Positions 12,479 through 21,278 of a stretch of DNA of 64,000 bases are shown here, piece after piece (the first letter of the stretch is position 1; each line of letters begins with the position of its first letter). Location of the stretch: assembly GCA_046329775.1 (NCBI GenBank), contig JAXLTX010000002.1, positions 530,231-594,230 on the forward strand, given 5' to 3'. The notes under the pieces are model-generated. The model was not told the DNA's origin. It made no database searches and was given only the letters and a program-made list of their open reading frames with translations. Source of the stretch: Chitinophagales bacterium (GTDB lineage: Bacteria > Bacteroidota > Bacteroidia > Chitinophagales > JADIYW01). A program made the translations under genes and the position numbers.

Positions 12479-12883
12479 ATGGCAAACTTTTTTTCAACCA
12501 GAGCGACAAAAGGCCTTTTAAAGGTGGGGGAAATCTATTGCCCTAAAAATGGCGACTTTCCTTCCTTCAGTGAAGCGGCCGGCACTCCCTTTCTGAATAA
12601 TCTGGTGGCAAATGTACCGGAAGATGATTTCTCCTCCCTGAGTCTGGTGCTGGCCATCTTTTCATTCCTGCCACAGGGCATCTTGCGCTGGATCATTGAT
12701 GCGTGCACCAATGCGCAACACAGCGGGAAGGACGGCCTTATCCCATCTACCCTGAGACAGCTGAACTTAGGCTTGCGGGGCTTGTGCTATTCCATCTATT
12801 ATTCTGAGTTTACCAATCCGAATTACACCGGAAAAAAACCGCTGGAGATTATCGATTATCACGTCAACCGCGTGGTGGATTAA
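12479..12883 (+). CDS. Hypothetical protein
   Basis: 134-aa ORF downstream of the GMC oxidoreductase with no recognisable motif. Its stop overlaps the convergent P450 stop in TTAA (12880-12883). Confidence 0.4.
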   Translation: MANFFSTRATKGLLKVGEIYCPKNGDFPSFSEAAGTPFLNNLVANVPEDDFSSLSLVLAIFSFLPQGILRWIIDACTNAQHSGKDGLIPSTLRQLNLGLRGLCYSIYYSEFTNPNYTGKKPLEIIDYHVNRVVD

Positions 12884-14206
12884 GCCACGTTCCGAATGTT
12901 CAGTTTTATACCATGTTTAGGTTTCAGGGTGACCAGCGGCTCAAACTCAACTTTTTGATTTTTATCCAATTCAAAATCAAAATGGTATAGCAACTGTGCC
13001 AGCAGTATCGTCATTTCCATAGTGGCAAAATAAAAGCCGATACACATCCTTGGTCCACCGCCAAATGGAAAATAGGCATTGCCGTTGAACAATGGATTAT
13101 CTTTCTTCAAAACGTTCCGGGATAAATTCATCCGGCTGCGTCCAGTATGCCGGATGACGATGTAGGTGATAAATGCTCATCAGCGTTACCGTTCCCTTGG
13201 GTATGTCTGTTTCATTTACCACATCCTCTTCCTTGCTTTCCCGACTCAGCATATATGCCGTTGGATACAGGCGCAGCGTTTCATCAATAACGGCCTTCAG
13301 ATAGGTGAATTGCCTGTACCGCTCCATCGTCAAAGCTCCATCTTGCATAATCTGCTGAACTTCAGCCTTTGCCTTTTTGTATTTCTCCGGATGGCTACAC
13401 AGGCAATACATGGCCCAGGAAATGGCATAACCGGAAGTCTCGTGTCCCGCCACATAAATCGTCAGCAGTTCATCGCGCAACTGACGGGTATCCATTCCTT
13501 CATTGGTGTCCAAATCCCTGGCGTCCAAGAGCATACTCAACAGATCATTCTTTGCATCCTGTCGTTTTCTTTGCTCTATCACATGGTACAGAATGGCATC
13601 CAGCGATTGTACGGAATGCTCAAATCGCTTCTTTTCACCATTCAGCGCAGACCATATTTCAAAAAACGGATTTCGGATGCATTTCACCATGTACAACTGC
13701 AATTCATAGATATGCTTTTGTATTTGGTTCAGCTGACCGGAAACATCGGCACCCAATAAGGTTTCCACGACAACTCTTGAGGTGAGTTGCATCATCTCCG
13801 CGTCAATGAAAACCGTTTGTTTGTTTTGCTTCTTCCACTCTTCCATTTCATTTTTCGCCAATCTGTTCATCACATCGAAAAAGCCTTCCAGCCGTGTCTT
13901 GTAAAATGCCGGTTGCGCCAGTCTGCGTTGTTTGAACCATGATTCCCCTTCATTCGTGAGCAGGCCATTGCCCAATACCATTTTCAGCTTATTGGAGGCA
14001 TAATCTTTTCTGTAATTCTTATGATTGGATACGAGGATCTGCTGTATAACGTCGGCATCGCAGGTGGCAAAAATTGTACGCATCGGAAGTGTAAAAATGA
14101 AAGACTTCTGATGTTCGAAATTCCGTCCCATGAACCGGATGATATCCTTGGAAATATCCAATGCACTGCCTAAAAGCGGTAAGGATTTAAGGACCGGTGT
14201 ACGCAT
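12880..14206 (-). pseudogene. Cytochrome P450, interrupted by a +/-1 frameshift (or a sequencing error)
   Basis: ORF 13097..14206 ends ...PERFEER*. The heme-binding loop FPFGGGPRMCIG is in ORF 12880..13131 in another frame. The two frames overlap at 13097-13131 around an A/T run. Confidence 0.8.
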
Positions 14207-15734: not shown

Positions 15735-15808
15735 GGCTGCGTAGTTCAATTGGATAGAATATCAGATTTCGGCTCTGAGGGTTGAGGGTTCGAATCCTTC
15801 CGCGGTCA
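15735..15808 (+). tRNA. tRNA-Arg (anticodon UCG)
   Basis: Hand-folded cloverleaf: 7-bp acceptor stem (two G-U pairs), D stem GTTC/GAAT, anticodon stem TCAGA/TCTGA with loop TT-TCG-GC, T arm GAGGG-TTCGAAT-CCTTC, discriminator A. No encoded CCA. Confidence 0.85.
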
Positions 15809-15822
15809 CTTTTATTTTCGGG

Positions 15823-15860: not shown

Positions 15861-15881
15861 AAGGGGAACTTACAGCTTACT

Positions 15882-15985
15882 TACAAGTACGATTCGGCAG
15901 AATGTTGGTCAGGAAGACCAATAACGGCGAGGGGTAGTTAAGTATCCGATTGAACATGTTCTTTGTTTGGCACAAGCACGCCACG
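15882..15985. repeat. 104-bp direct repeat, copy a (family-2 unit with hairpin TTGGTC...GACCAA and GGGTAGTT motif)
   Basis: By eye it is identical to 16462-16565. Confidence 0.85.
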
Positions 15986-16046
15986 CTCACCGCTTGGCTG
16001 CATGCTCGCGCCAGTGGGAGTAGTTTGGTTTCGGTTGGTGAGGACA

Positions 16047-16135
16047 CCCCGCCCTCGACAGGTGTTTTCACCTGTCGACTGCCATACCGTTTATCTTGCA
16101 AAGACCTATTCATCATAAGCAGCTATAAAATTTCC
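16047..16135. repeat. Solo left end of the RAYT element (H1 hairpin plus last ~50 nt of the transposase gene)
   Basis: CCCCGCCCT-CGACAGGTGTTTTCACCTGTCG-ACTGCCATACCGTTTATCTTGCAAAGACCTATTCATCATAAGCAGCTATAAAAT. A second tail-only copy lies at 16146-16195. Confidence 0.8.
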
Positions 16136-16203
16136 GTACAAATATGTCGACTGCCATACCGTTTATCTTGCAAAGACCTATTCATATAAGCAGCACGTTT
16201 TCT

Positions 16204-16373
16204 CGACAGGTGTTTTCACCTGTCGACTGCCATACCGTTTATCTTTCAGCACACACATACGCTTAAATTTATAAAATAAATTTCGTTTAAAGGAGATCAT
16301 TCTTTGCGGCTAGTAGTTGGCAGGTGACGCATGCGCGCTAAAGCTTGCAAGCTAAACACCTGCCACGGGCGGG
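16204..16373. repeat. MITE-like non-autonomous unit (H1 ... H2)
   Basis: H1 is at 16204-16225. H2 arms are at 16319-16326 and 16357-16364. The H2 loop carries GCATGCGCGC and the 12-bp perfect palindrome AGCTTGCAAGCT. The unit ends in ACGGGCGGG. Confidence 0.8.
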
Positions 16374-16456
16374 TATATCATGTTTAAAAATAACACTAAT
16401 TTTCGGATTTCATTTCGGTTCGTAGTTGACAGGTGACAACACCTGTCAAGGGCAGG
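16374..16456. repeat. Solo right end of the RAYT element (first codons of the transposase plus GTAG-H3 hairpin)
   Basis: TATATCATGTTTAAAAATAAC...TCGTAGTTGACAGGTGACAACACCTGTCAAGGGCAGG matches 19216-19305 of the intact element. Confidence 0.8.
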
Positions 16457-16461
16457 ATACG

Positions 16462-16565
16462 TACAAGTACGATTCGGCAGAATGTTGGTCAGGAAGACCA
16501 ATAACGGCGAGGGGTAGTTAAGTATCCGATTGAACATGTTCTTTGTTTGGCACAAGCACGCCACG
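16462..16565. repeat. 104-bp direct repeat, copy b
   Basis: Identical to 15882-15985. Here the next H1 element follows immediately at 16566. Confidence 0.85.
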
Positions 16566-16974
16566 CCCCCGCCCTCGACAGGTGTTTTCACCTGTCGACT
16601 GCCATACCGTTTATCTTTCAGCACACACATACGTTTAAATTTATAAAATAAATTTCGTTTAAAGGAGATCACTCTTTGCGGCTAGCAGTTGGCAGGTGAC
16701 GCATGCGCGCTAAAGCCCCGCCCTCGACAGGTGTTTTCACCTGTCGCGCCTCGACAGGTGTTTTCATTTTGTCGACTGCCATACCGTTTATATGCAAAAA
16801 ACCTCACGCTTATCTTTTAATATTTTATTATATACAGTTCAGCACACACATACGCTTAAATTTATAAAATAAATTTCGTTTAAAGGAGATCATTCTTTGC
16901 GGCAAGTAGTTGGCCGGTGACGCATGCGCGCTAAAGCTTGCAAGCTAAACACCTGCCAAGGGCGGGGGGGGGGG
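16566..16974. repeat. Nested MITE-like units (one interrupted inside the H2 loop by another H1 end), ending in a G11 tract
   Basis: H1 at 16576-16597. H2 is cut at ...GCGCGCTAAAG|CCCCGCCCTCGAC (about 16716). H1 at 16725-16746, with a degenerate H1 at 16752-16775. A variant H2 (GGCCGGTG) starts at 16913. G11 runs 16964-16974. Confidence 0.75.
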
Positions 16975-17475
16975 CACCTGTCGACTGCCATACCGTTTAT
17001 CTTGCAAAGACCTATTCATCATAAGTAGCTATAAAATCCCATACACTTTTATTCTGCAAAAAATGCTCAGCGCTTGAATATTTATATTCTTCAGGCACTT
17101 TACACAAGCCAGCCCTTACCGGATTGTTATGTATATAATCCATTTTTTGAGTAAATACCTTCTCACTGTATAAATCTACCGATAATGAATCAGTTTTCCA
17201 AATCATATATGTTCGATCATAGTGATTAACTTTACAGGTATCCAATAATACTAAGTCATGTTGTTTTAAGTAAAACATAATTTGTTGAGCAGTATATTTC
17301 AAAAAATCTCGCTGTACATCTTTTAGCAAGTGTGGTGATCTTATTCGCCAGATTAAATGTAAATGGTTACTCATAATTACAAATCCATATACATTAACTC
17401 TGTTAGCTTTTACAAGGAATCTTAAACTATCTATGATAATGTCTTTTACAGCATCGTCCTTCAAAAGATGATTCC
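16975..17475 (-). mobile_element. 5'-truncated copy of the RAYT element (lacks right end and first ~18 codons; left hairpin halved)
   Basis: It begins with the half hairpin CACCTGTCGACTGCC and ends at ...GATGATTCC|CCGCCCTCGAC, where another H1 end abuts. It is nearly identical to 18684-19170. Confidence 0.8.
17012..17475 (-). pseudogene. IS200-like Y1 (HUH) transposase, RAYT-type, N-terminally truncated
   Basis: It retains the HUH motif SNHLHLIW and the Tyr motif DYIHNNPVRAGL but lacks MIYEENHPQFFTATIYEW. It differs from the intact copy at only a few residues (KDIII vs KYIII; IATYDE vs IAAYDE). Confidence 0.8.
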
Positions 17476-17696
17476 CCGCCCTCGACAGGTGTTTTCACCT
17501 GTCGACTGCCATACCGTTTATCTTGCAAAGACCTATTCATCATAAGCAGCTATAAAATCCCATACACCCCGCCCTCGACAGGTGTTTTCACCTGTCGACT
17601 GCCATACCGTTTATCTTTCAGCACACACATACGCTTAAATTTATAAAATAAATTTCGTTTAAAGGAGATCATTCTTTGCGGCTAGTAGTGGCAGGT
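17476..17696. repeat. Solo left end (17476-17566) followed by a MITE-like unit truncated in the H2 5' arm (17567-17696)
   Basis: H1 at 17483-17504 and 17576-17597. H2 stops at GTAGTGGCAGGT|TCTTTG. Confidence 0.8.
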
Positions 17697-17854
17697 TCTT
17701 TGTTTGGCACAAGCATGCCACGTTTGATTAATGGATGCATGCTTGCAGCAATAGGGAACTTAATGGTTGCGGTCAGAGACCGGCAGATTTAGTACACACG
17801 AGTGTACCTGCGGAACACTCGCGCGAGATGGGTAGTTGGGGAACACTATCTACA
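17697..17854. repeat. Family-2 structured repeat (three hairpins)
   Basis: CAAGCATGC pairs with GCATGCTTG. GCGGTC-AGA-GACCGG forms a second hairpin. CGAGTGT-ACCTGCGGA-ACACTCG forms a third. The unit ends with GGGTAGTTGGGG. Confidence 0.7.
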
Positions 17855-18274
17855 TTACTGCTCGGCTGATTTTATAGCTCTTTTAATTTCATCTTTTATC
17901 AAAAAGTCAAATTTCACAGGACAACTGTCATTTGCAGTAACCTCACACTCACTTATAGGGAAAATGGCATAACCTGAAATTAGAACAGTTTTATGATTAT
18001 TAACTATGGCAAAAGTCCTTAGAGATAAAAACAAAAGCTGTAATGATATTCCAAATAAATATTTGAATATATTATTACGCTTGAGATGAAAAAGAAAAAA
18101 AATAGCTAAAAGTGATATTACAAATACAATCATGTAGTTATATCTGACTAGGGAAACATTGTATGTTCCACTCTGGCCTGACAGTAAAAATTTCAATAAA
18201 TCTTCATCAATGATGCTAAATGAAGCAACTATCAAAATTAAAAGGCTAAATAGAATGTTCTTTATTTTATTCAT
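17855..18274 (-). CDS. Hypothetical membrane protein
   Basis: 139 aa with about 4 hydrophobic segments, AT-rich. It starts 1 nt after the upstream gene remnant. Confidence 0.45.
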   Translation of the reverse strand: MNKIKNILFSLLILIVASFSIIDEDLLKFLLSGQSGTYNVSLVRYNYMIVFVISLLAIFFLFHLKRNNIFKYLFGISLQLLFLSLRTFAIVNNHKTVLISGYAIFPISECEVTANDSCPVKFDFLIKDEIKRAIKSAEQ

Positions 18275-18275
18275 T

Positions 18276-18640
18276 TCATTCAGTTGTAAAGGTTACTCCC
18301 GCTGGAATAGTATTATCTTTATAAAACACAGGTGATACCAGTTTTTTATCACCATCTTGAATTAAAGTTGAAGATGATCCGCCATCAAATCCGAAAACGT
18401 AATCATATCCTTGACCAGCTAGTTTATCCCTTATAACATCGAGAGTCATTCCACCTGTTTTCATCTCATCAGGAGACACTACCAACATCATAGAGTTATT
18501 CTTACTGTTCAGAGCAATTATAACTTTTCCAACTGTCTTTGAATTTTGTGCGCCATATCCCTCTGCTTCACAATATTCACCATACTCCTTATTTGAATAT
18601 TTCTGTCCATCAACAATTATTGGAATTCCTCATCCAAAAC
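18276..18640 (-). pseudogene. Phosphodiester glycosidase (DUF2233/NAGPA-like) C-terminal remnant
   Basis: ...MMLVVSPDEMKTGGMTLDVIRDKLAGQGYDYVFGFDGGSSSTLI... The reading frame opens only at 18640, a few nt from the left end of the RAYT element (18653). Confidence 0.55.
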
Positions 18641-18652
18641 CTACTGTTGAAC

Positions 18653-19305
18653 CCCCGCCCTCGACAGGTGTTTTCACCTGTCGACTGCCATACCGTTTAT
18701 CTTGCAAAGACCTATTCATCATAAGCAGCTATAAAATCCCATACACTTTTATTCTGCAAAAAATGTTCAGCGCTTGAATATTTATATTCTTCAGGCACTT
18801 TACACAAGCCGGCCCTTACCGGATTGTTATGTATATAATCCATTTTTTGAGTAAATACTTTCTCGCTGTATAAATCTACCGATAATGAATCAGTTTTCCA
18901 AATCATATATGTTCGATCATAGTGATTAACTTTACAGGTATCCAATAATACTAAGTCATGTTGTTTTAAGTAAAACATAATTTGTTGAGCAGTATATTTC
19001 AAAAAATCTCGTTGTACATCTTTTAGCAAGTGTGGTGATCTTATTCGCCAGATTAAATGTAAATGGTTACTCATAATTACAAATCCATATACATTAACTC
19101 TGTTAGCTTTTACAAGGAATCTTAAACTATCTATGATAATGTATTTTACCGCATCATCCTTCAAAAGATGATTCCATTCATAAATGGTGGCGGTGAAAAA
19201 TTGCGGATGATTTTCTTCATATATCATGTTTAAAAATAACACTAATTTTCGGGTTTCATTTCGGTTCGTAGTTGACAGGTGACAACACCTGTCAAGGGCG
19301 GGGGG
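18653..19305 (-). mobile_element. Intact RAYT element: Y1 transposase flanked by inverted hairpin-containing ends
   Basis: Left end is CCCCGCCCTCGACAGGTGTTTTCACCTGTCGAC (18653-). Right end is GTAGTTGACAGGTGACAACACCTGTCAAGGGCGGGGGG (-19305). The reverse complement of the right end matches the left end at about 29 of 33 positions. Confidence 0.85.
18712..19227 (-). CDS. IS200-like Y1 (HUH) transposase, REP-associated tyrosine transposase (RAYT) type
   Basis: HUH motif VIMSNHLHLIW. Catalytic-Tyr helix KMDYIHNNPVRAGL. About 171 aa from ATG 19227; the ORF track starts at GTG 19242. Confidence 0.85.
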   Translation of the reverse strand: MIYEENHPQFFTATIYEWNHLLKDDAVKYIIIDSLRFLVKANRVNVYGFVIMSNHLHLIWRIRSPHLLKDVQRDFLKYTAQQIMFYLKQHDLVLLDTCKVNHYDRTYMIWKTDSLSVDLYSEKVFTQKMDYIHNNPVRAGLCKVPEEYKYSSAEHFLQNKSVWDFIAAYDE

Positions 19306-19365
19306 ATTTTGTAGACTCAGGTCGTCCTGCGGAAGACCTGCGCCAGAGTGGTGGAGTAGACAGTT
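19306..19365. repeat. Family-2 hairpin (CAGGTC-GTCCTGCGGAA-GACCTG)
   Basis: Same loop core CCTGCGGA as 17803-17826 but with a different, self-complementary stem. Confidence 0.6.
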
Positions 19366-19554
19366 TTACCTAAATAACTCAGCGATTGCCTTAATTAAAA
19401 AATAAAATCCACCTATAAAACAACTCATTATAACAGTAAAAGCTCTCCATTTATTACCAGCTGGATCATCGTCAGATTGATACTTATATTGAAAAAAGAA
19501 ACTAGCAAATCCAACTATTAATAATAAAACCCCATTTGTAATATCTGATTTCAT
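19366..19554 (-). CDS. Hypothetical small membrane protein (2 TM)
   Basis: 62 aa with two hydrophobic helices. It lies 8 nt downstream of a gene remnant. Confidence 0.4.
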   Translation of the reverse strand: MKSDITNGVLLLIVGFASFFFQYKYQSDDDPAGNKWRAFTVIMSCFIGGFYFLIKAIAELFR

Positions 19555-19686
19555 TGATTCAATTATTTATGTTCTTTATTTGTTTGAATATCTAAGGTTC
19601 TTTCTTCCGGTACTTCTAAAGTTTTATCTAGCAAGTAATCTTTACTTCTTTTTTGTGTTTCGTCTAAAATACCAGTTCCCAATTTA

Positions 19687-19951
19687 TCCCCGCCCTCGAC
19701 AGGTGTTTTCACCTGTCGACTGCCATACCGTTTATCTTGCAATATACATATACGCTTAAATTTATAAAATAAATTTCGTTTAAAGGAGATCATTCTTTGC
19801 GGCTAGTAGTTGGCAGGTGACGCATGCGCGCTAAAGCTTGCAAGCTAAACACCTGCCACGGGCGGGTATATCATGTTTAAAAATAACACTAATTTTCGGA
19901 TTTCATTTCGGTTCGTAGTTGACAGGTGACAACACCTGTCAAGGGCAGGGG
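19687..19951. repeat. Composite: MITE-like unit (subtype TTGCAATATACATATACGC) plus solo right end
   Basis: H1 at 19697-19718. H2 arms at 19812-19819 and 19850-19857. H3 at 19921-19940. From the H2 region onward it is identical to 16280-16456. Confidence 0.8.
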
Positions 19952-19956
19952 ATTTA

Positions 19957-20643
19957 GCCTTTAAACATCCTTCGTATGGGTTCAGAAAGCTGTTTGCCTA
20001 TATCCGCAGAGCAGGCAAAGGCTGGAATCATAAGCGGGTATATCGGATATATAAGCTGTTAAAGCTGAACAGAAAACGAAGAGGTAAAAGACGGCTGCCG
20101 GCAAGGGTAAAACAACCGCTGACACAACAGAGCCATATCAATCAAAGCTGGAGCATGGACTTTATGAGCGACAGTATGGTGGGCAATCGAAAGTTCAGAA
20201 CATTTAATGTGATGGATGACGGCTCCAGAGAAGTACTGGCTATAGAAGTAGATACCTCCCTTTCAGCAAAAAGAATTATAAGGACATTGCAACAAATTAT
20301 CAGCCACAGAGGAAAACCACAAATGATAAGAACAGACAACGGACCGGAATTCACCTCCAAGGACTTTGAGCTATGGTGTACAGACAATGAAATCAAACTT
20401 CAATATATTCAACCCGGAAGGCCCATGCAGAATGGTTATATAGAACGATTTAACCGGCTGTATCGGGAAGCGGTATTGGATGCTTACTTGTTCTTTGATC
20501 TGTCTGAAGTAAGAACACTCACCGATGAATGGATAGAGGAATACAATCACAGACGACCACACGAATCTTTACAAAACCAAACGCCCAATGAATGGAAAAT
20601 TAATTTATTAAATCAACAAAATACTCTAATTTGCACTGTCTGA
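19957..20643 (+). pseudogene. IS3-family transposase OrfB (DDE/rve integrase core), 5'-truncated
   Basis: The frame is open from 19957 (DLAFKHPSYGFRKLFAYIRRAGKGWNHKRVYRIYKLL...) through the rve core (...IRTDNGPEFTS...YIQPGRPMQNGYIERFN...YNHRRPHESL). There is no OrfA or left IR. It starts directly at the repeat end (19951). Confidence 0.8.
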
Positions 20644-20972
20644 AAAAAGGGGTACTTACACGCTAATTCATTCCTGTCAATATAAATATTTACTTCTACT
20701 GATTTTTCCATTACTTCTAAACTACCTGCCCCTGTCGCTACTACCTGATTTAAATCTATTGAAGCTTGCTCAAAATTTCTTAGCTCAAAGTAGGACAAAC
20801 CTCTTAAACCCAATAATTCTTTATTCTTTTTTTTGTCTAAACCCTTATTTGCTATCTCTATAACTTTACTGTAGTCTTTATTATTATATGCTACTTGAGC
20901 TTCTCTTACGTAATCCTTTGCACAAGAATTCATACATATCAAACAATAAAATCCGATTAGATAATTTTTCAT
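20613..20972 (-). CDS. TPR-like lipoprotein, probably 3'-disrupted by the IS3 remnant
   Basis: Lipoprotein signal MKNYLIGFYCLICMNSC and a TPR-like repeat. The last ~15 codons overlap the IS3 right end (to about 20660), so the native C-terminus is probably lost. Confidence 0.5.
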   Translation of the reverse strand: MKNYLIGFYCLICMNSCAKDYVREAQVAYNNKDYSKVIEIANKGLDKKKNKELLGLRGLSYFELRNFEQASIDLNQVVATGAGSLEVMEKSVEVNIYIDRNELACKYPFFQTVQIRVFC

Positions 20973-21093
20973 AAATACTATTTTTTTTGATAATTTGTTT
21001 TTGCACCTACGCCTACGCCTACTTTAAGTGGGCTATTTTTCCCGCCAACACCTTTATCTATTCCTACATTAACACCACTTCTTTCCCAACTAC

Positions 21094-21278
21094 TCGACTG
21101 CCATACCGTTTATCTTGCAATATACATATACGCTTAAATTTATAAAATAAATTTCGTTTAAAGGAGATCATTCTTTGCGGCTAGTAGTTGGCAGGTGACG
21201 CATGCGCGCTAAAGCTTGCAAGCTAAACACCTGCCACGGGCGGGTAGTTGACAGGTGACAACACCTGTCAAGGGCGGG
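21094..21278. repeat. Composite: hairpin-less left tail plus MITE-like body (H2) plus H3
   Basis: CGACTGCCATACCGTTTATCTTGCAATATACATATACGC... H2 arms at 21190-21197 and 21228-21235. H3 at 21250-21269. The ~50-nt transposase-start stub seen in the other composites is missing (GGGCGGGTA|GTTGAC). Confidence 0.8.

What the first reader, a model, noticed from the sequence alone, without database searches (positions are those of the whole stretch)
16204..16373. MITE-like non-autonomous derivative with a long-loop hairpin carrying a 12-bp perfect palindrome
A unit of about 170 bp recurs at 16204-16373, 16566-16716 (cut), 16838-16965, 17567-17696 (cut), 19687-19866 and 21094-21243. It shares the H1 left end with the transposase element. 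In place of the gene it has an AT-rich spacer followed by GTAGTT-GGCAGGTG-[ACGCATGCGCGCTAAAGCTTGCAAGCTAAA]-CACCTGCC-ACGGGCGGG. The 30-nt loop contains GCATGC, GCGCGC and the perfect palindrome AGCTTGCAAGCT. There are two sequence subtypes: ...TTTCAGCACACACATACGC versus ...TTGCAATATACATATACGC. The ends mimic the autonomous element (CCCGCCCTCGACAGGTG versus the reverse complement CCCGCCCGTGGCAGGTG), so mobilisation in trans is plausible.
Basis: partly seen in the sequence, partly recalled or inferred. Interest (0 to 1): 0.6.

Follow-up and report, generated by a model that had tools for sequence, protein, structure and literature searches.

The report
Gene-less REP hairpin doublet (mini-REPtron)
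The repeated 170-base unit is the gene-less shell of a small hairpin-ended mobile element (a REP/RAYT "REPtron") in an uncultured wastewater Chitinophagales bacterium; it is a low-copy example of a known kind of bacterial repeat, amplified and rearranged mainly within one 5-kb hot spot.

Summary
Six copies or fragments of the ~170-180 nt unit lie at the stated places and are 93-100% alike. The 61-nt long-loop hairpin H occurs four times where chance expects none.

The neighbouring "transposase" is a REP-associated tyrosine transposase (RAYT). It reaches the NCBIfam cut-off, has HUH and Tyr motifs, and its only PDB relative is E. coli TnpA-REP. Inverted GTAG-footed REP hairpins flank it, which makes it a REPtron.

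Read on the RAYT strand, the unit aligns end to end with a related species' REPtron once the ORF is removed. It keeps the upstream long-loop REP, the 5'UTR with its promoter box, the 3'UTR and the downstream REP. It is therefore an ORF-less, REPIN/MITE-like derivative. Two copies carry both REPtron ends (265 nt).

The long loop is a genus-wide REP variant made of ~13-15-nt modules.

Recent copies sit only in this tRNA-Arg-adjacent locus. Two old, diverged copies lie elsewhere, and other strains show different junctions and subtypes. Mobilisation in trans by RAYT is plausible but unproven, and local recombination explains part of the array.

This is a new member of a known kind, of modest interest. 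The scan had already noted this hot spot and the REPtron on the same window.

The parts
16196..16456 (+). Copy A: L (lacks its first 6 nt) - spacer S1 - long-loop REP H (16313-16373) - R'+R. This is the 265-nt type with both REPtron ends.
   Evidence: 98% identical to copy E over 255 nt
16566..16716 (+). Copy B: L - S1 - H, cut inside the loop after GCGCGCTAAAGC by the next L end
16747..16966 (+). Copy C: degenerate L hairpin with a ~45-nt insert, then S1 - H (16906-16966, 2 mismatches). An 11-G run follows.
17567..17696 (+). Copy D: L - S1 - first 12 nt of H, joined to a REP of another family
   Evidence: in other strains this copy has a third subtype and an R-type hairpin
19687..19951 (+). 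Copy E: complete 265-nt unit L - S2 - H (19806-19866) - R' - R. It abuts a truncated IS3 transposase gene.
   Evidence: Folds as ssDNA with L:R pairing, -53.1 kcal/mol, z -7.15. Confirmed in two independent short-read assemblies.
21094..21278 (+). Copy F: L (3' part only) - S2 - H (21184-21244), followed directly by R (21244-21278), i.e. a direct tandem REP pair
18653..19304 (-). Autonomous partner: a REPtron. The RAYT ORF is at 18712-19227 on the minus strand (171 aa, NHLH and YIHNNP motifs). It lies between the downstream REP L (18654-18690) and the upstream REP R (19268-19302).
   Evidence: NCBIfam NF047646 83.4 bits, cut-off 80. A family profile hits only 4ER8 in the PDB, E 5e-5. 2582 homologues, several named RayT.
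16975..17475 (-). Truncated second REPtron copy: 3' arm of L plus 150 C-terminal codons of RAYT, 98% identical to the intact copy. It is cut by another L end.
16047..16194 (+). Two solo L ends with the first 30-85 nt of REPtron interior. The first one interrupts a REP of the GGTTGGTG family at 16029-16047.
17474..17567 (+). Solo L end plus 94 nt of REPtron 3' region, lying between the truncated RAYT copy and copy D

Best explanation
The unit is the ORF-less shell of a REPtron, i.e. a RAYT gene flanked by inverted REP hairpins.

Read on the minus strand (the RAYT strand), the unit consists of:
- the upstream REP (H: foot GTAG, 8-bp stem GGCAGGTG/CACCTGCC, 30-nt modular loop, tail GGGCGGG);
- the RAYT 5'UTR with its promoter-like TTTTATAAATTT box;
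- 13-18 nt of filler where the ORF used to be;
- the 3'UTR;
- the downstream REP (L).

It descends from a long-loop variant of the element that is still intact in sister species. In two copies it sits inside the resident short-loop REPtron 8 nt after the RAYT start codon, so those copies carry both REPtron ends.

Inferred mechanism: the one intact RAYT (HUH/Tyr single-strand endonuclease) recognises the GTAG-footed hairpins on single-stranded DNA. It cuts and rejoins them, so that REPs, REP doublets and the whole REPtron are copied or rearranged. This happens mostly over short distances and into or next to other hairpins. Homologous recombination and hairpin-stimulated slippage between the many co-oriented copies add deletions and conversions. 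The result is a REPIN/MITE-like non-autonomous element at low copy number.

Shown: the anatomy, the homology to a REPtron minus its ORF, the RAYT identity, conservation of the long-loop REP in the genus, and strain polymorphism.

Inferred: RAYT-catalysed movement.
For: - RAYT identity: NCBIfam REP_Tyr_transpos above its cut-off. HUH (NHLH) and YIHNNP are invariant across the family alignment. The family profile finds only E. coli TnpA-REP 4ER8 in the PDB. Homologues are annotated RayT.
- REP signature: 5' GTAG (R, H) or GCAG (L) foot, hairpin z-scores of -5.4 and -6.6, inverted arrangement around the gene.
- Origin: the reverse complement of the unit aligns end to end with the G020 REPtron minus its ORF. 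Identity is 78% overall, 90% over the upstream REP and 93% over the 3'UTR plus downstream REP; only the filler is unrelated.
- Long-loop REPs flank the RAYT orthologues (74-81% aa identity) in four sister species. They occur in about a dozen Chitinophagales/Sphingobacteriales MAGs.
- Other ORF-less doublets exist in the genome: C8:311838-311950, C8:312339-312523 and a diverged unit at C8:35528-35667 (69% identity, nhmmer E 2e-11). One also lies in a relative at G011:C2:498095-498247.
- Six copies have six different flank contexts and all are co-oriented.
- Strain differences are anchored exactly at element ends: win 18390|L in three assemblies; an R end joined to RAYT-internal sequence in ERZ27248702; S1 versus S2 at site E.
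- The REPtron itself has at least 4 flank contexts across strains.
- REP pattern hits are absent from 7 of the 8 genus genomes that lack a RAYT match.
Against: - No transposition event was observed.
- All six recent copies lie within 5.2 kb. The genome-wide profile finds only two old, diverged relatives elsewhere.
- An exact 36-mer of the spacer has no match in JGI metagenome contigs. The peptide trick found only the same locus.
- No target-site duplication and no target consensus were found.
- Several truncated copies are not simple nested insertions. They could arise by slippage or recombination without any transposase.
- H has a G-C where the resident RAYT's own REPs have A-T in the stem, plus a 30-nt loop, so recognition by this RAYT is assumed, not shown.
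- Some strain differences come from metagenome assemblies that may mis-join repeats.
Confidence: 0.7

Rival explanations
1. The array is local debris only. One ORF-less REPtron arose once, then was multiplied and broken within this locus by unequal homologous recombination, gene conversion and palindrome-stimulated replication slippage. The unit is not, and never was, mobilised by the transposase.
For: All recent copies lie in one 5.2-kb stretch and are co-oriented. A 109-nt flank (X1) is duplicated together with an element end. Cut points cluster in hairpin arms and loops. Strain variants include an apparent L-to-L deletion and subtype replacement at one site, which looks like gene conversion.
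Against: Six copies have six different flank contexts, including two different coding remnants and an IS3 remnant. Diverged unit copies lie 511 kb away and on another contig. Junctions fall exactly at element termini in sequences with no homology (win 18390, RAYT-internal 18992, a foreign REP at 16047). The REPtron itself sits in at least 4 contexts.
Confidence: 0.2
2. The unit is a classical IS200/IS605-type non-autonomous element (PATE). It would move by peel-and-paste of one strand, with left and right subterminal hairpins on the same strand and insertion 3' of a fixed tetranucleotide.
For: The transposase is a Y1 HUH enzyme distantly matching Pfam Y1_Tnp. The REPtron is multi-copy at 98% identity, which is IS-like. 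All copies are co-oriented, as expected for strand-specific insertion.
Against: The Pfam IS200 model scores below its cut-off (16.5 vs 23), while the RAYT model passes. The ends are inverted repeats, with the GTAG foot inside on opposite strands, unlike IS200/IS605 ends. No conserved flanking target was found among 22 upstream-end flanks.
Confidence: 0.07
3. The long-loop hairpin is primarily a host-functional element, such as a protein-binding site, an RNA stabiliser or terminator, or a regulatory RNA. Its repetition would then reflect selection for that function.
For: Loop termini ACGCTT...AAGCTAAA and a 4-bp upper stem are conserved across species, with one compensatory C-G to T-A change. 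The same loop termini occur on a REP with a different stem, TTGTTGGTG.
Against: There is no Rfam match and no T-run after the hairpins. The palindromes are not conserved, and loop length varies from 4 to 35 nt within the family. Copies are truncated without regard to the hairpin. The covariation rests on 3 related sequences.
Confidence: 0.03

Closest known systems
REPINs (REP doublets forming hairpins) and their RAYTs, Pseudomonas fluorescens SBW25 (Bertels & Rainey 2011, PMC3116915; PMC3337134)
   Same: Two REP hairpins in inverted orientation with a spacer, no coding capacity, and ends identical to the REPs flanking a RAYT gene. Both are presumed to be mobilised in trans by a HUH/Tyr enzyme acting on single-stranded hairpins.
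   Different: REPINs number tens to hundreds, dispersed in extragenic space, with a single vertically inherited RAYT. Here there are 6 recent copies in one locus plus 2 old ones, and the RAYT element itself is present 3 times at 98% identity. The spacer is long (~95 nt) and is recognisably the RAYT gene's own UTRs. One REP has a 30-nt loop.
E. coli K-12 REPtron / BIMEs with TnpA-REP (structure 4ER8; Ton-Hoang et al. 2012, as cited in PMC6006769 and PMC3733652)
   Same: A RAYT gene flanked by inverted GTAG-footed REPs, with tandem and alternating REP arrays next to it. Long bulged REP variants coexist with short ones.
   Different: Protein similarity is only remote (profile E 5e-5). E. coli has hundreds of REPs and a non-mobile REPtron, whereas here copy number is low and the REPtron looks mobile.
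TnpA-Y1 subclass 2.6 / RAYT Group 5 of Bacteroidetes (Quentin et al. 2018, PMC6006769; Bertels et al. 2017, PMC5581495)
   Same: The motif signature matches: NH[LIV]H, YIH[QN]NP, a conserved C-terminal SS, ~171-179 aa, Bacteroidota host. The genes are flanked by secondary structures that recur in the genome at low to moderate copy number.
   Different: The paper describes the flanking structures of subclass 2.6 as atypical, lacking the GT[AG]G foot and weakly structured. Here the foot is a canonical GTAG and the stems are perfect 8-10 bp. Assignment to 2.6 rests on motifs only; no reference sequences were compared.
MITEs / IS200-IS605 PATEs
   Same: An internal-deletion derivative that keeps both ends of an autonomous element. 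The 265-nt form has 34-nt terminal inverted repeats.
   Different: There is no target-site duplication. The ends are REP hairpins recognised as single strands, and the transposase is RAYT-type rather than DDE or TnpA-IS200.

Membership tests
RAYT / TnpA-REP (the partner enzyme) | HUH motif and catalytic Tyr in a Y1 fold; match to a curated RAYT model | tested here: met
   NF047646 scores 83.4 bits against a cut-off of 80. NHLH and YIHNNP are invariant in the alignment of 24 homologues. The only PDB hit of the family profile is 4ER8 TnpA-REP, covering both motifs.
REP (GTAG-type repetitive extragenic palindrome) | 5' GT[AG]G foot followed by an imperfect palindrome of 20-40 nt | tested here: met
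   R and H have GTAG + 2 nt + an 8-10 bp stem; L has GCAG. H is 61 nt because of its 30-nt loop.
REP (GTAG-type repetitive extragenic palindrome) | High copy number (typically >100 per genome), dispersed | tested here: not met
   16 pattern hits in this genome, 14 of them in this locus; 0-7 hits in 32 congeners.
REPtron | RAYT gene flanked by its cognate REPs in inverted orientation | tested here: met
   L and R arms are 34-35 nt long and 88-91% complementary around the ORF. The same layout is seen in G020, G013, G044 and G005.
REPIN | [quoted passage not shown] | tested here: met
   L (reverse orientation) and H (forward), with the feet facing inward. The unit folds with a 7-bp closing stem plus two hairpins, z -5.8. 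The 265-nt form pairs L with R over ~34 nt, z -7.15.
REPIN | A population of many dispersed copies served by one single-copy, vertically inherited RAYT | tested here: not met
   Six clustered copies plus two diverged ones. RAYT is present as one intact copy, one copy with a stop codon and one truncated copy, at 97-98% identity, and sits in different contexts in other strains.
MITE | Non-autonomous internal-deletion derivative sharing terminal inverted repeats with an autonomous element | tested here: met
   Alignment to a REPtron minus its ORF. Copies A and E carry both REPtron ends.
MITE | Target-site duplication flanking each copy | tested here: not met
   No direct repeat at any of the junctions read. 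The flank survey shows no motif.
IS200/IS605 PATE | TnpA-IS200 transposase and non-inverted subterminal hairpins with a fixed 5' target tetranucleotide | tested here: not met
   Pfam Y1_Tnp scores 16.5 bits, below its cut-off of 23. The ends are inverted. No conserved target was found.
Any REP/REPIN/MITE | Demonstrated mobility (new insertions, empty sites) | tested here: inconclusive
   Strain-specific junctions lie at element ends, but no clean filled-versus-empty pair was found.

The most novel reading that the evidence does not exclude
The REPtron and its gene-less derivatives may not be mere passengers. They may actively remodel a tRNA-Arg-adjacent variable region. Each of three '3' gene remnant + small membrane/lipoprotein ORF' modules abuts an L end. 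In another strain the same remnant is cut 260 nt further in, again exactly at an L end. This would be RAYT-driven one-ended deletion or capture of gene cassettes. In that reading the modular, duplicating long loop would serve as a specific recognition or regulatory handle for the Bacteroidota RAYT clade.
Probability: 0.1. Interest if true: 0.6.

Novelty: new member of a known kind. Interest (0 to 1): 0.3.

Why it matters
REP/RAYT systems are well studied in Proteobacteria but barely described in Bacteroidota. The published survey (PMC6006769) records only "atypical secondary structures" around the genes.

This locus gives a clean example of three things:
- a canonical GTAG-footed REPtron of that clade;
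- direct sequence evidence that a REP doublet arises by loss of the RAYT ORF from a REPtron, which bears on the proposed origin of REPINs;
- a REP whose loop grows by tandem modules.

It also shows a RAYT element behaving like an insertion sequence. That blurs the line between domesticated RAYTs and IS200-like elements.

None of this is a new kind of system. Its practical value is for annotation: such arrays break short-read assemblies. It also offers a candidate enzyme/substrate pair for biochemistry.

Tried and rejected
1. Rfam scan of the window: only the tRNA, so no known RNA family.
2. Conserved palindromic protein-binding site in the loop: rejected. GCATGC, GCGCGC and AGCTTGCAAGCT are absent from the 20 homologous loops. 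Only ACGCTT...AAGCTAAA and a 4-bp upper stem persist, with weak covariation from one pair in 3 related sequences.
3. Target-site preference or duplication: 22 upstream-end flanks are merely A/T-rich and the downstream flanks have no consensus, so this was dropped.
4. Exact 36-mer of the spacer against JGI metagenome contigs: 0 hits.
5. Using the spurious 76-aa ORF that reads out of the unit to find other insertion contexts among 5.8 billion proteins: one hit, at the same locus.
6. Exact look-up of the 171-aa RAYT: not on record. The 176-aa GTG-start version was found instead.
8. Restoring an ORF across copy F by joining its flanks: no convincing continuous frame.
9. GC skew: the minus strand is G-rich here, so it is probably the lagging-strand template. 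This does not by itself discriminate between the models.
10. Evidence from L035, L039 and L040 for further variants (intact IS3, full L at copy F, R' present at copy F) was set aside as possibly repeat-induced assembly paths.

Full report
**Observation.** The region between tRNA-Arg(UCG) (15735-15809) and about 21280 is packed with repeats.

BLAST and an nhmmer profile built from the six copies recover 16196/16204-16373, 16566-16716, 16838-16966, 17567-17696, 19687-19866 and 21094-21244. Pairwise identity is 93.4-100%. The 61-nt hairpin H (GTAGTT-GGCAGGTG-30 nt-CACCTGCC-ACGGGCGGG) occurs four times at up to 3 mismatches, against none in 100 shuffles. The loop palindromes and the two spacer subtypes are as described.

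Three refinements:
- Copies A and E continue with the last 85 nt of the transposase element, making 265-nt units (16196-16456, 19687-19951, family D1/D6).
- Copy F is followed directly by the element's right hairpin R (21244-21278).
- Copy C starts near 16747, with a degenerate left hairpin and a ~45-nt insert.

**The neighbouring gene.** The 171-aa ORF at 18715-19227 (minus strand) scores below the Pfam IS200 cut-off (16.5 vs 23 bits). It scores above the NCBIfam cut-off for REP-associated tyrosine transposase (83.4 vs 80).

Its family is large: 2582 proteins at E<=1e-20, several of them named RayT or REP-associated tyrosine transposase in Chitinophagales, Cytophagales and Ekhidna. In an alignment of 24 members the HUH motif (NHxH, here NHLH) and YIHNNP are invariant or nearly so. 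A profile of that alignment finds a single PDB entry, E. coli TnpA-REP 4ER8, aligned over both motifs (E 5e-5). The motif signature and length fit subclass 2.6 (RAYT Group 5) of Quentin et al. 2018 (PMC6006769). I did not compare reference sequences.

The gene is flanked by two hairpins in inverted orientation:
- R = GTAG-TT-GACAGGTG-ACAA-CACCTGTC-AA-GGGCGGG
- reverse complement of L = GCAG-TC-GACAGGTG-AAAA-CACCTGTC-GA-GGGCGGG

The arms are 34-35 nt long and 88-91% complementary. The hairpin z-scores are -5.4 and -6.6. A GTAG foot 5' of a palindrome, in inverted copies around a RAYT gene, defines a REPtron (PMC3733652, PMC6006769).

**What the unit is.** I aligned the unit, read on the RAYT strand, with the REPtron of a sister species (G020:C373:531-1240, RAYT 81% identical) after removing the ORF from the latter. 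The two align end to end. Identity by segment:

| Segment | Matches | Identity |
|---|---|---|
| Upstream REP, including the long loop | 54/60 | 90% |
| 5'UTR, including the shared TTTTATAAATTT box just before the start codon | 25/38 | 66% |
| Filler at the position of the ORF | 2/15 | unrelated |
| 3'UTR plus downstream REP | 50/54 | 93% |
| Overall | 131/167 | 78% |

The unit is therefore a REPtron that has lost its ORF almost exactly from start to stop codon. H is its upstream REP and L its downstream REP.

In G020, G013, G044 and G005 the RAYT orthologues (74-81% identical) carry long-loop REPs at one or both ends. H is thus the normal REP of a sister lineage of the element, not an oddity of this locus.

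In copies A and E the junction H|R' lies 8 nt into the resident RAYT ORF (ATGATATA|). The simplest history is insertion of the gene-less unit into a resident REPtron, followed by loss of the rest of the gene between the two L copies. This history is inferred.

**The loop.** A pattern search in 33 genomes of the genus found this REP family in 15 of them, at 0-16 copies per genome. Loops are 4 nt (ATAA/AAAA/ACAA), 10-15 nt or 24-35 nt.

A scan of 185,579 species genomes with the loop termini found 27 stretches, nearly all in uncultured Chitinophagales, Sphingobacteriales or Saprospirales MAGs.

Long loops look like one or two tandem copies of a module GC(W)TGC-N-GCTA(A). Twenty aligned loops keep ACGCTT at the 5' end and AAGCTAAA at the 3' end. 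A 4-bp upper stem GCTT/AAGC is paired in 89.7% of cells, with one C-G to T-A double change in three related sequences. This exceeds the shuffles but is thin evidence.

The palindromes GCATGC, GCGCGC and AGCTTGCAAGCT are peculiar to this species. A REP with a different stem (TTGTTGGTG) carries the same loop termini. That hints the loop ends matter, possibly to the enzyme. PMC6006769 notes an insertion in subclass 2.6 proteins that may recognise unusual REPs.

**Distribution and mobility.**
- Within the 2.96-Mb, 15-contig assembly, the six recent copies are confined to this 5.2-kb locus.
- The unit profile also finds a nearly full-length diverged copy in an intergenic region 511 kb away (C8:35528-35667, 69% identity, E 2e-11). 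It finds a spacer+H fragment on another contig (C10:117966-118057, 78%).
- Other gene-less REP doublets of the family lie at C8:311838-311950 (112 nt) and C8:312339-312523, and in a relative at G011:C2:498095-498247.
- The six copies have six different flank contexts, and all L, H and R hairpins are co-oriented.
- The REPtron itself is present as one intact copy, one truncated copy, and one copy with a stop codon at the end of the contig. All are 97-98% identical.

**Strain comparison.** Exact-protein look-ups of flanking genes retrieved contigs of the same species from wastewater and activated-sludge assemblies.
- Three NCBI metagenome assemblies share a shorter locus. They lack window 16100-17564 and 18391-19686. 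An L end is joined at 18390 inside a gene remnant that in the window runs on to 18650, where it meets the REPtron's L end. Copy D there has a third spacer subtype and an R-type hairpin. Site E carries an S1-type rather than an S2-type unit.
- Two independent short-read assemblies confirm the window's arrangement around copy E. In one of them the unit's R end is joined to RAYT-internal sequence (window 18992) instead of the IS3 remnant.
- The REPtron has at least four different flanks across strains.

These junctions fall exactly at element termini in non-homologous DNA, which favours enzyme-mediated events. Other differences look like L-to-L recombination or gene conversion. No clean filled/empty pair, no target-site duplication and no target motif were found.

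**Mechanism.** The best-supported reading (about 0.7) is as follows. The intact RAYT acts on single-stranded, GTAG-footed hairpins. It copies or rejoins REPs, REP doublets and whole REPtrons, mostly locally and often into other hairpins. One example is the foreign REP cut at 16047, whose intact relatives flank a RAYT paralogue on C15. Recombination and slippage among co-oriented copies do the rest.

As single-stranded DNA, the 180-nt unit folds with a 7-bp closing stem and two hairpins (z -5.8). The 265-nt form pairs L with R over ~34 nt (z -7.15), which is REPIN-like.

The main rival (about 0.2) is that the array is purely recombinational debris.

**Comparison with known systems and novelty.**
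- The unit works like a REPIN or MITE. It passes the anatomical tests for REP, REPtron and REPIN. It fails the copy-number and dispersal criteria of REP and REPIN populations and the TSD criterion of MITEs.
- The enzyme fails the IS200 model but passes the RAYT model.
- This is a new member of a known kind. Its mild particularities are a canonical GTAG foot in a Bacteroidota RAYT clade reported to lack it, loops that expand by modules, a directly visible ORF-loss origin of a REP doublet, and IS-like behaviour of the REPtron.
- Earlier notes of this scan on the same window had already flagged the hot spot and identified the REPtron. My results agree with them.

Noticed in passing
window 17795-17850 and 19311-19360; also G000 C8:235986-236042 and C8:236718-236757: A second REP family: foot GTAG/GTAC, 6-bp stems that differ but stay complementary (GAGTGT/ACACTC vs CAGGTC/GACCTG), and a conserved loop ..CCTGCGGAA. 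Its relatives flank a RAYT pseudogene at C8:236096-236488 (34% identical to the window's RAYT, 3 stops).
   Followed up: partly
window 16029-16047; G000 C15:66440-67170; C10:117940-117975: A third REP family (TTTCGGTTGGTG-AGGA-CACCAACCGA) flanks an intact RAYT paralogue on C15 (66620-67090, 40% identical). The copy in the window is cut in its 3' arm by an L end, so this is a REP inserted into a REP.
   Followed up: partly
window 12880-14206: The cytochrome P450 gene is split (369 + 83 aa). The same split is called in three independent Logan assemblies (L084, L088, L089). Seven other assemblies of the species have an intact 442-aa gene. It is therefore a real strain polymorphism, not a sequencing error.
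   Followed up: partly
window 17855-21093, minus strand: Three modules of '3' gene remnant + small membrane or TPR-lipoprotein ORF' each abut an L end. In other strains the 18276-18650 remnant is cut at 18390, again exactly at an L end. This suggests deletions anchored at the element end.
   Followed up: partly
window 19952-20643: IS3-family transposase remnant (rve domains only) starting exactly at the R end of copy E. A wastewater contig (L035) has the full orfA+orfB version with different upstream genes, which may be an assembly path through another IS copy.
   Followed up: partly
window 15873-15986 and 16458-16566: A 109-114-nt non-REP segment (X1) is duplicated at 97-99% identity, each copy ending at an L end. 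A related 31-mer recurs at 17692-17722.
   Followed up: no
window 16964-16974: An 11-G homopolymer sits at the tail of H in copy C, where other copies have 3-6 G. It is fused to the 3' half of an L hairpin. G-run length at REP tails varies from 3 to 7 across copies and strains.
   Followed up: no
G000 C8:609464-610111 (outside the window): A second full-length REPtron copy (98% identical, RAYT with one TAA stop) ends the contig. A fourth REP type (GTAGTTGCACGGGTC-ACAA-GACCCGGCAAGGGCGAGG) lies just beside it. Most short-read contigs of this species break at these repeats.
   Followed up: partly
G017:C1:270437-277387 and 2788121-2792811; G007:C1:4056-28893; G013:C7:46900-47850: Sister species have similar clusters of several RAYT genes, fragments and tandem REPs. 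RAYT hot spots therefore recur in the genus.
   Followed up: no
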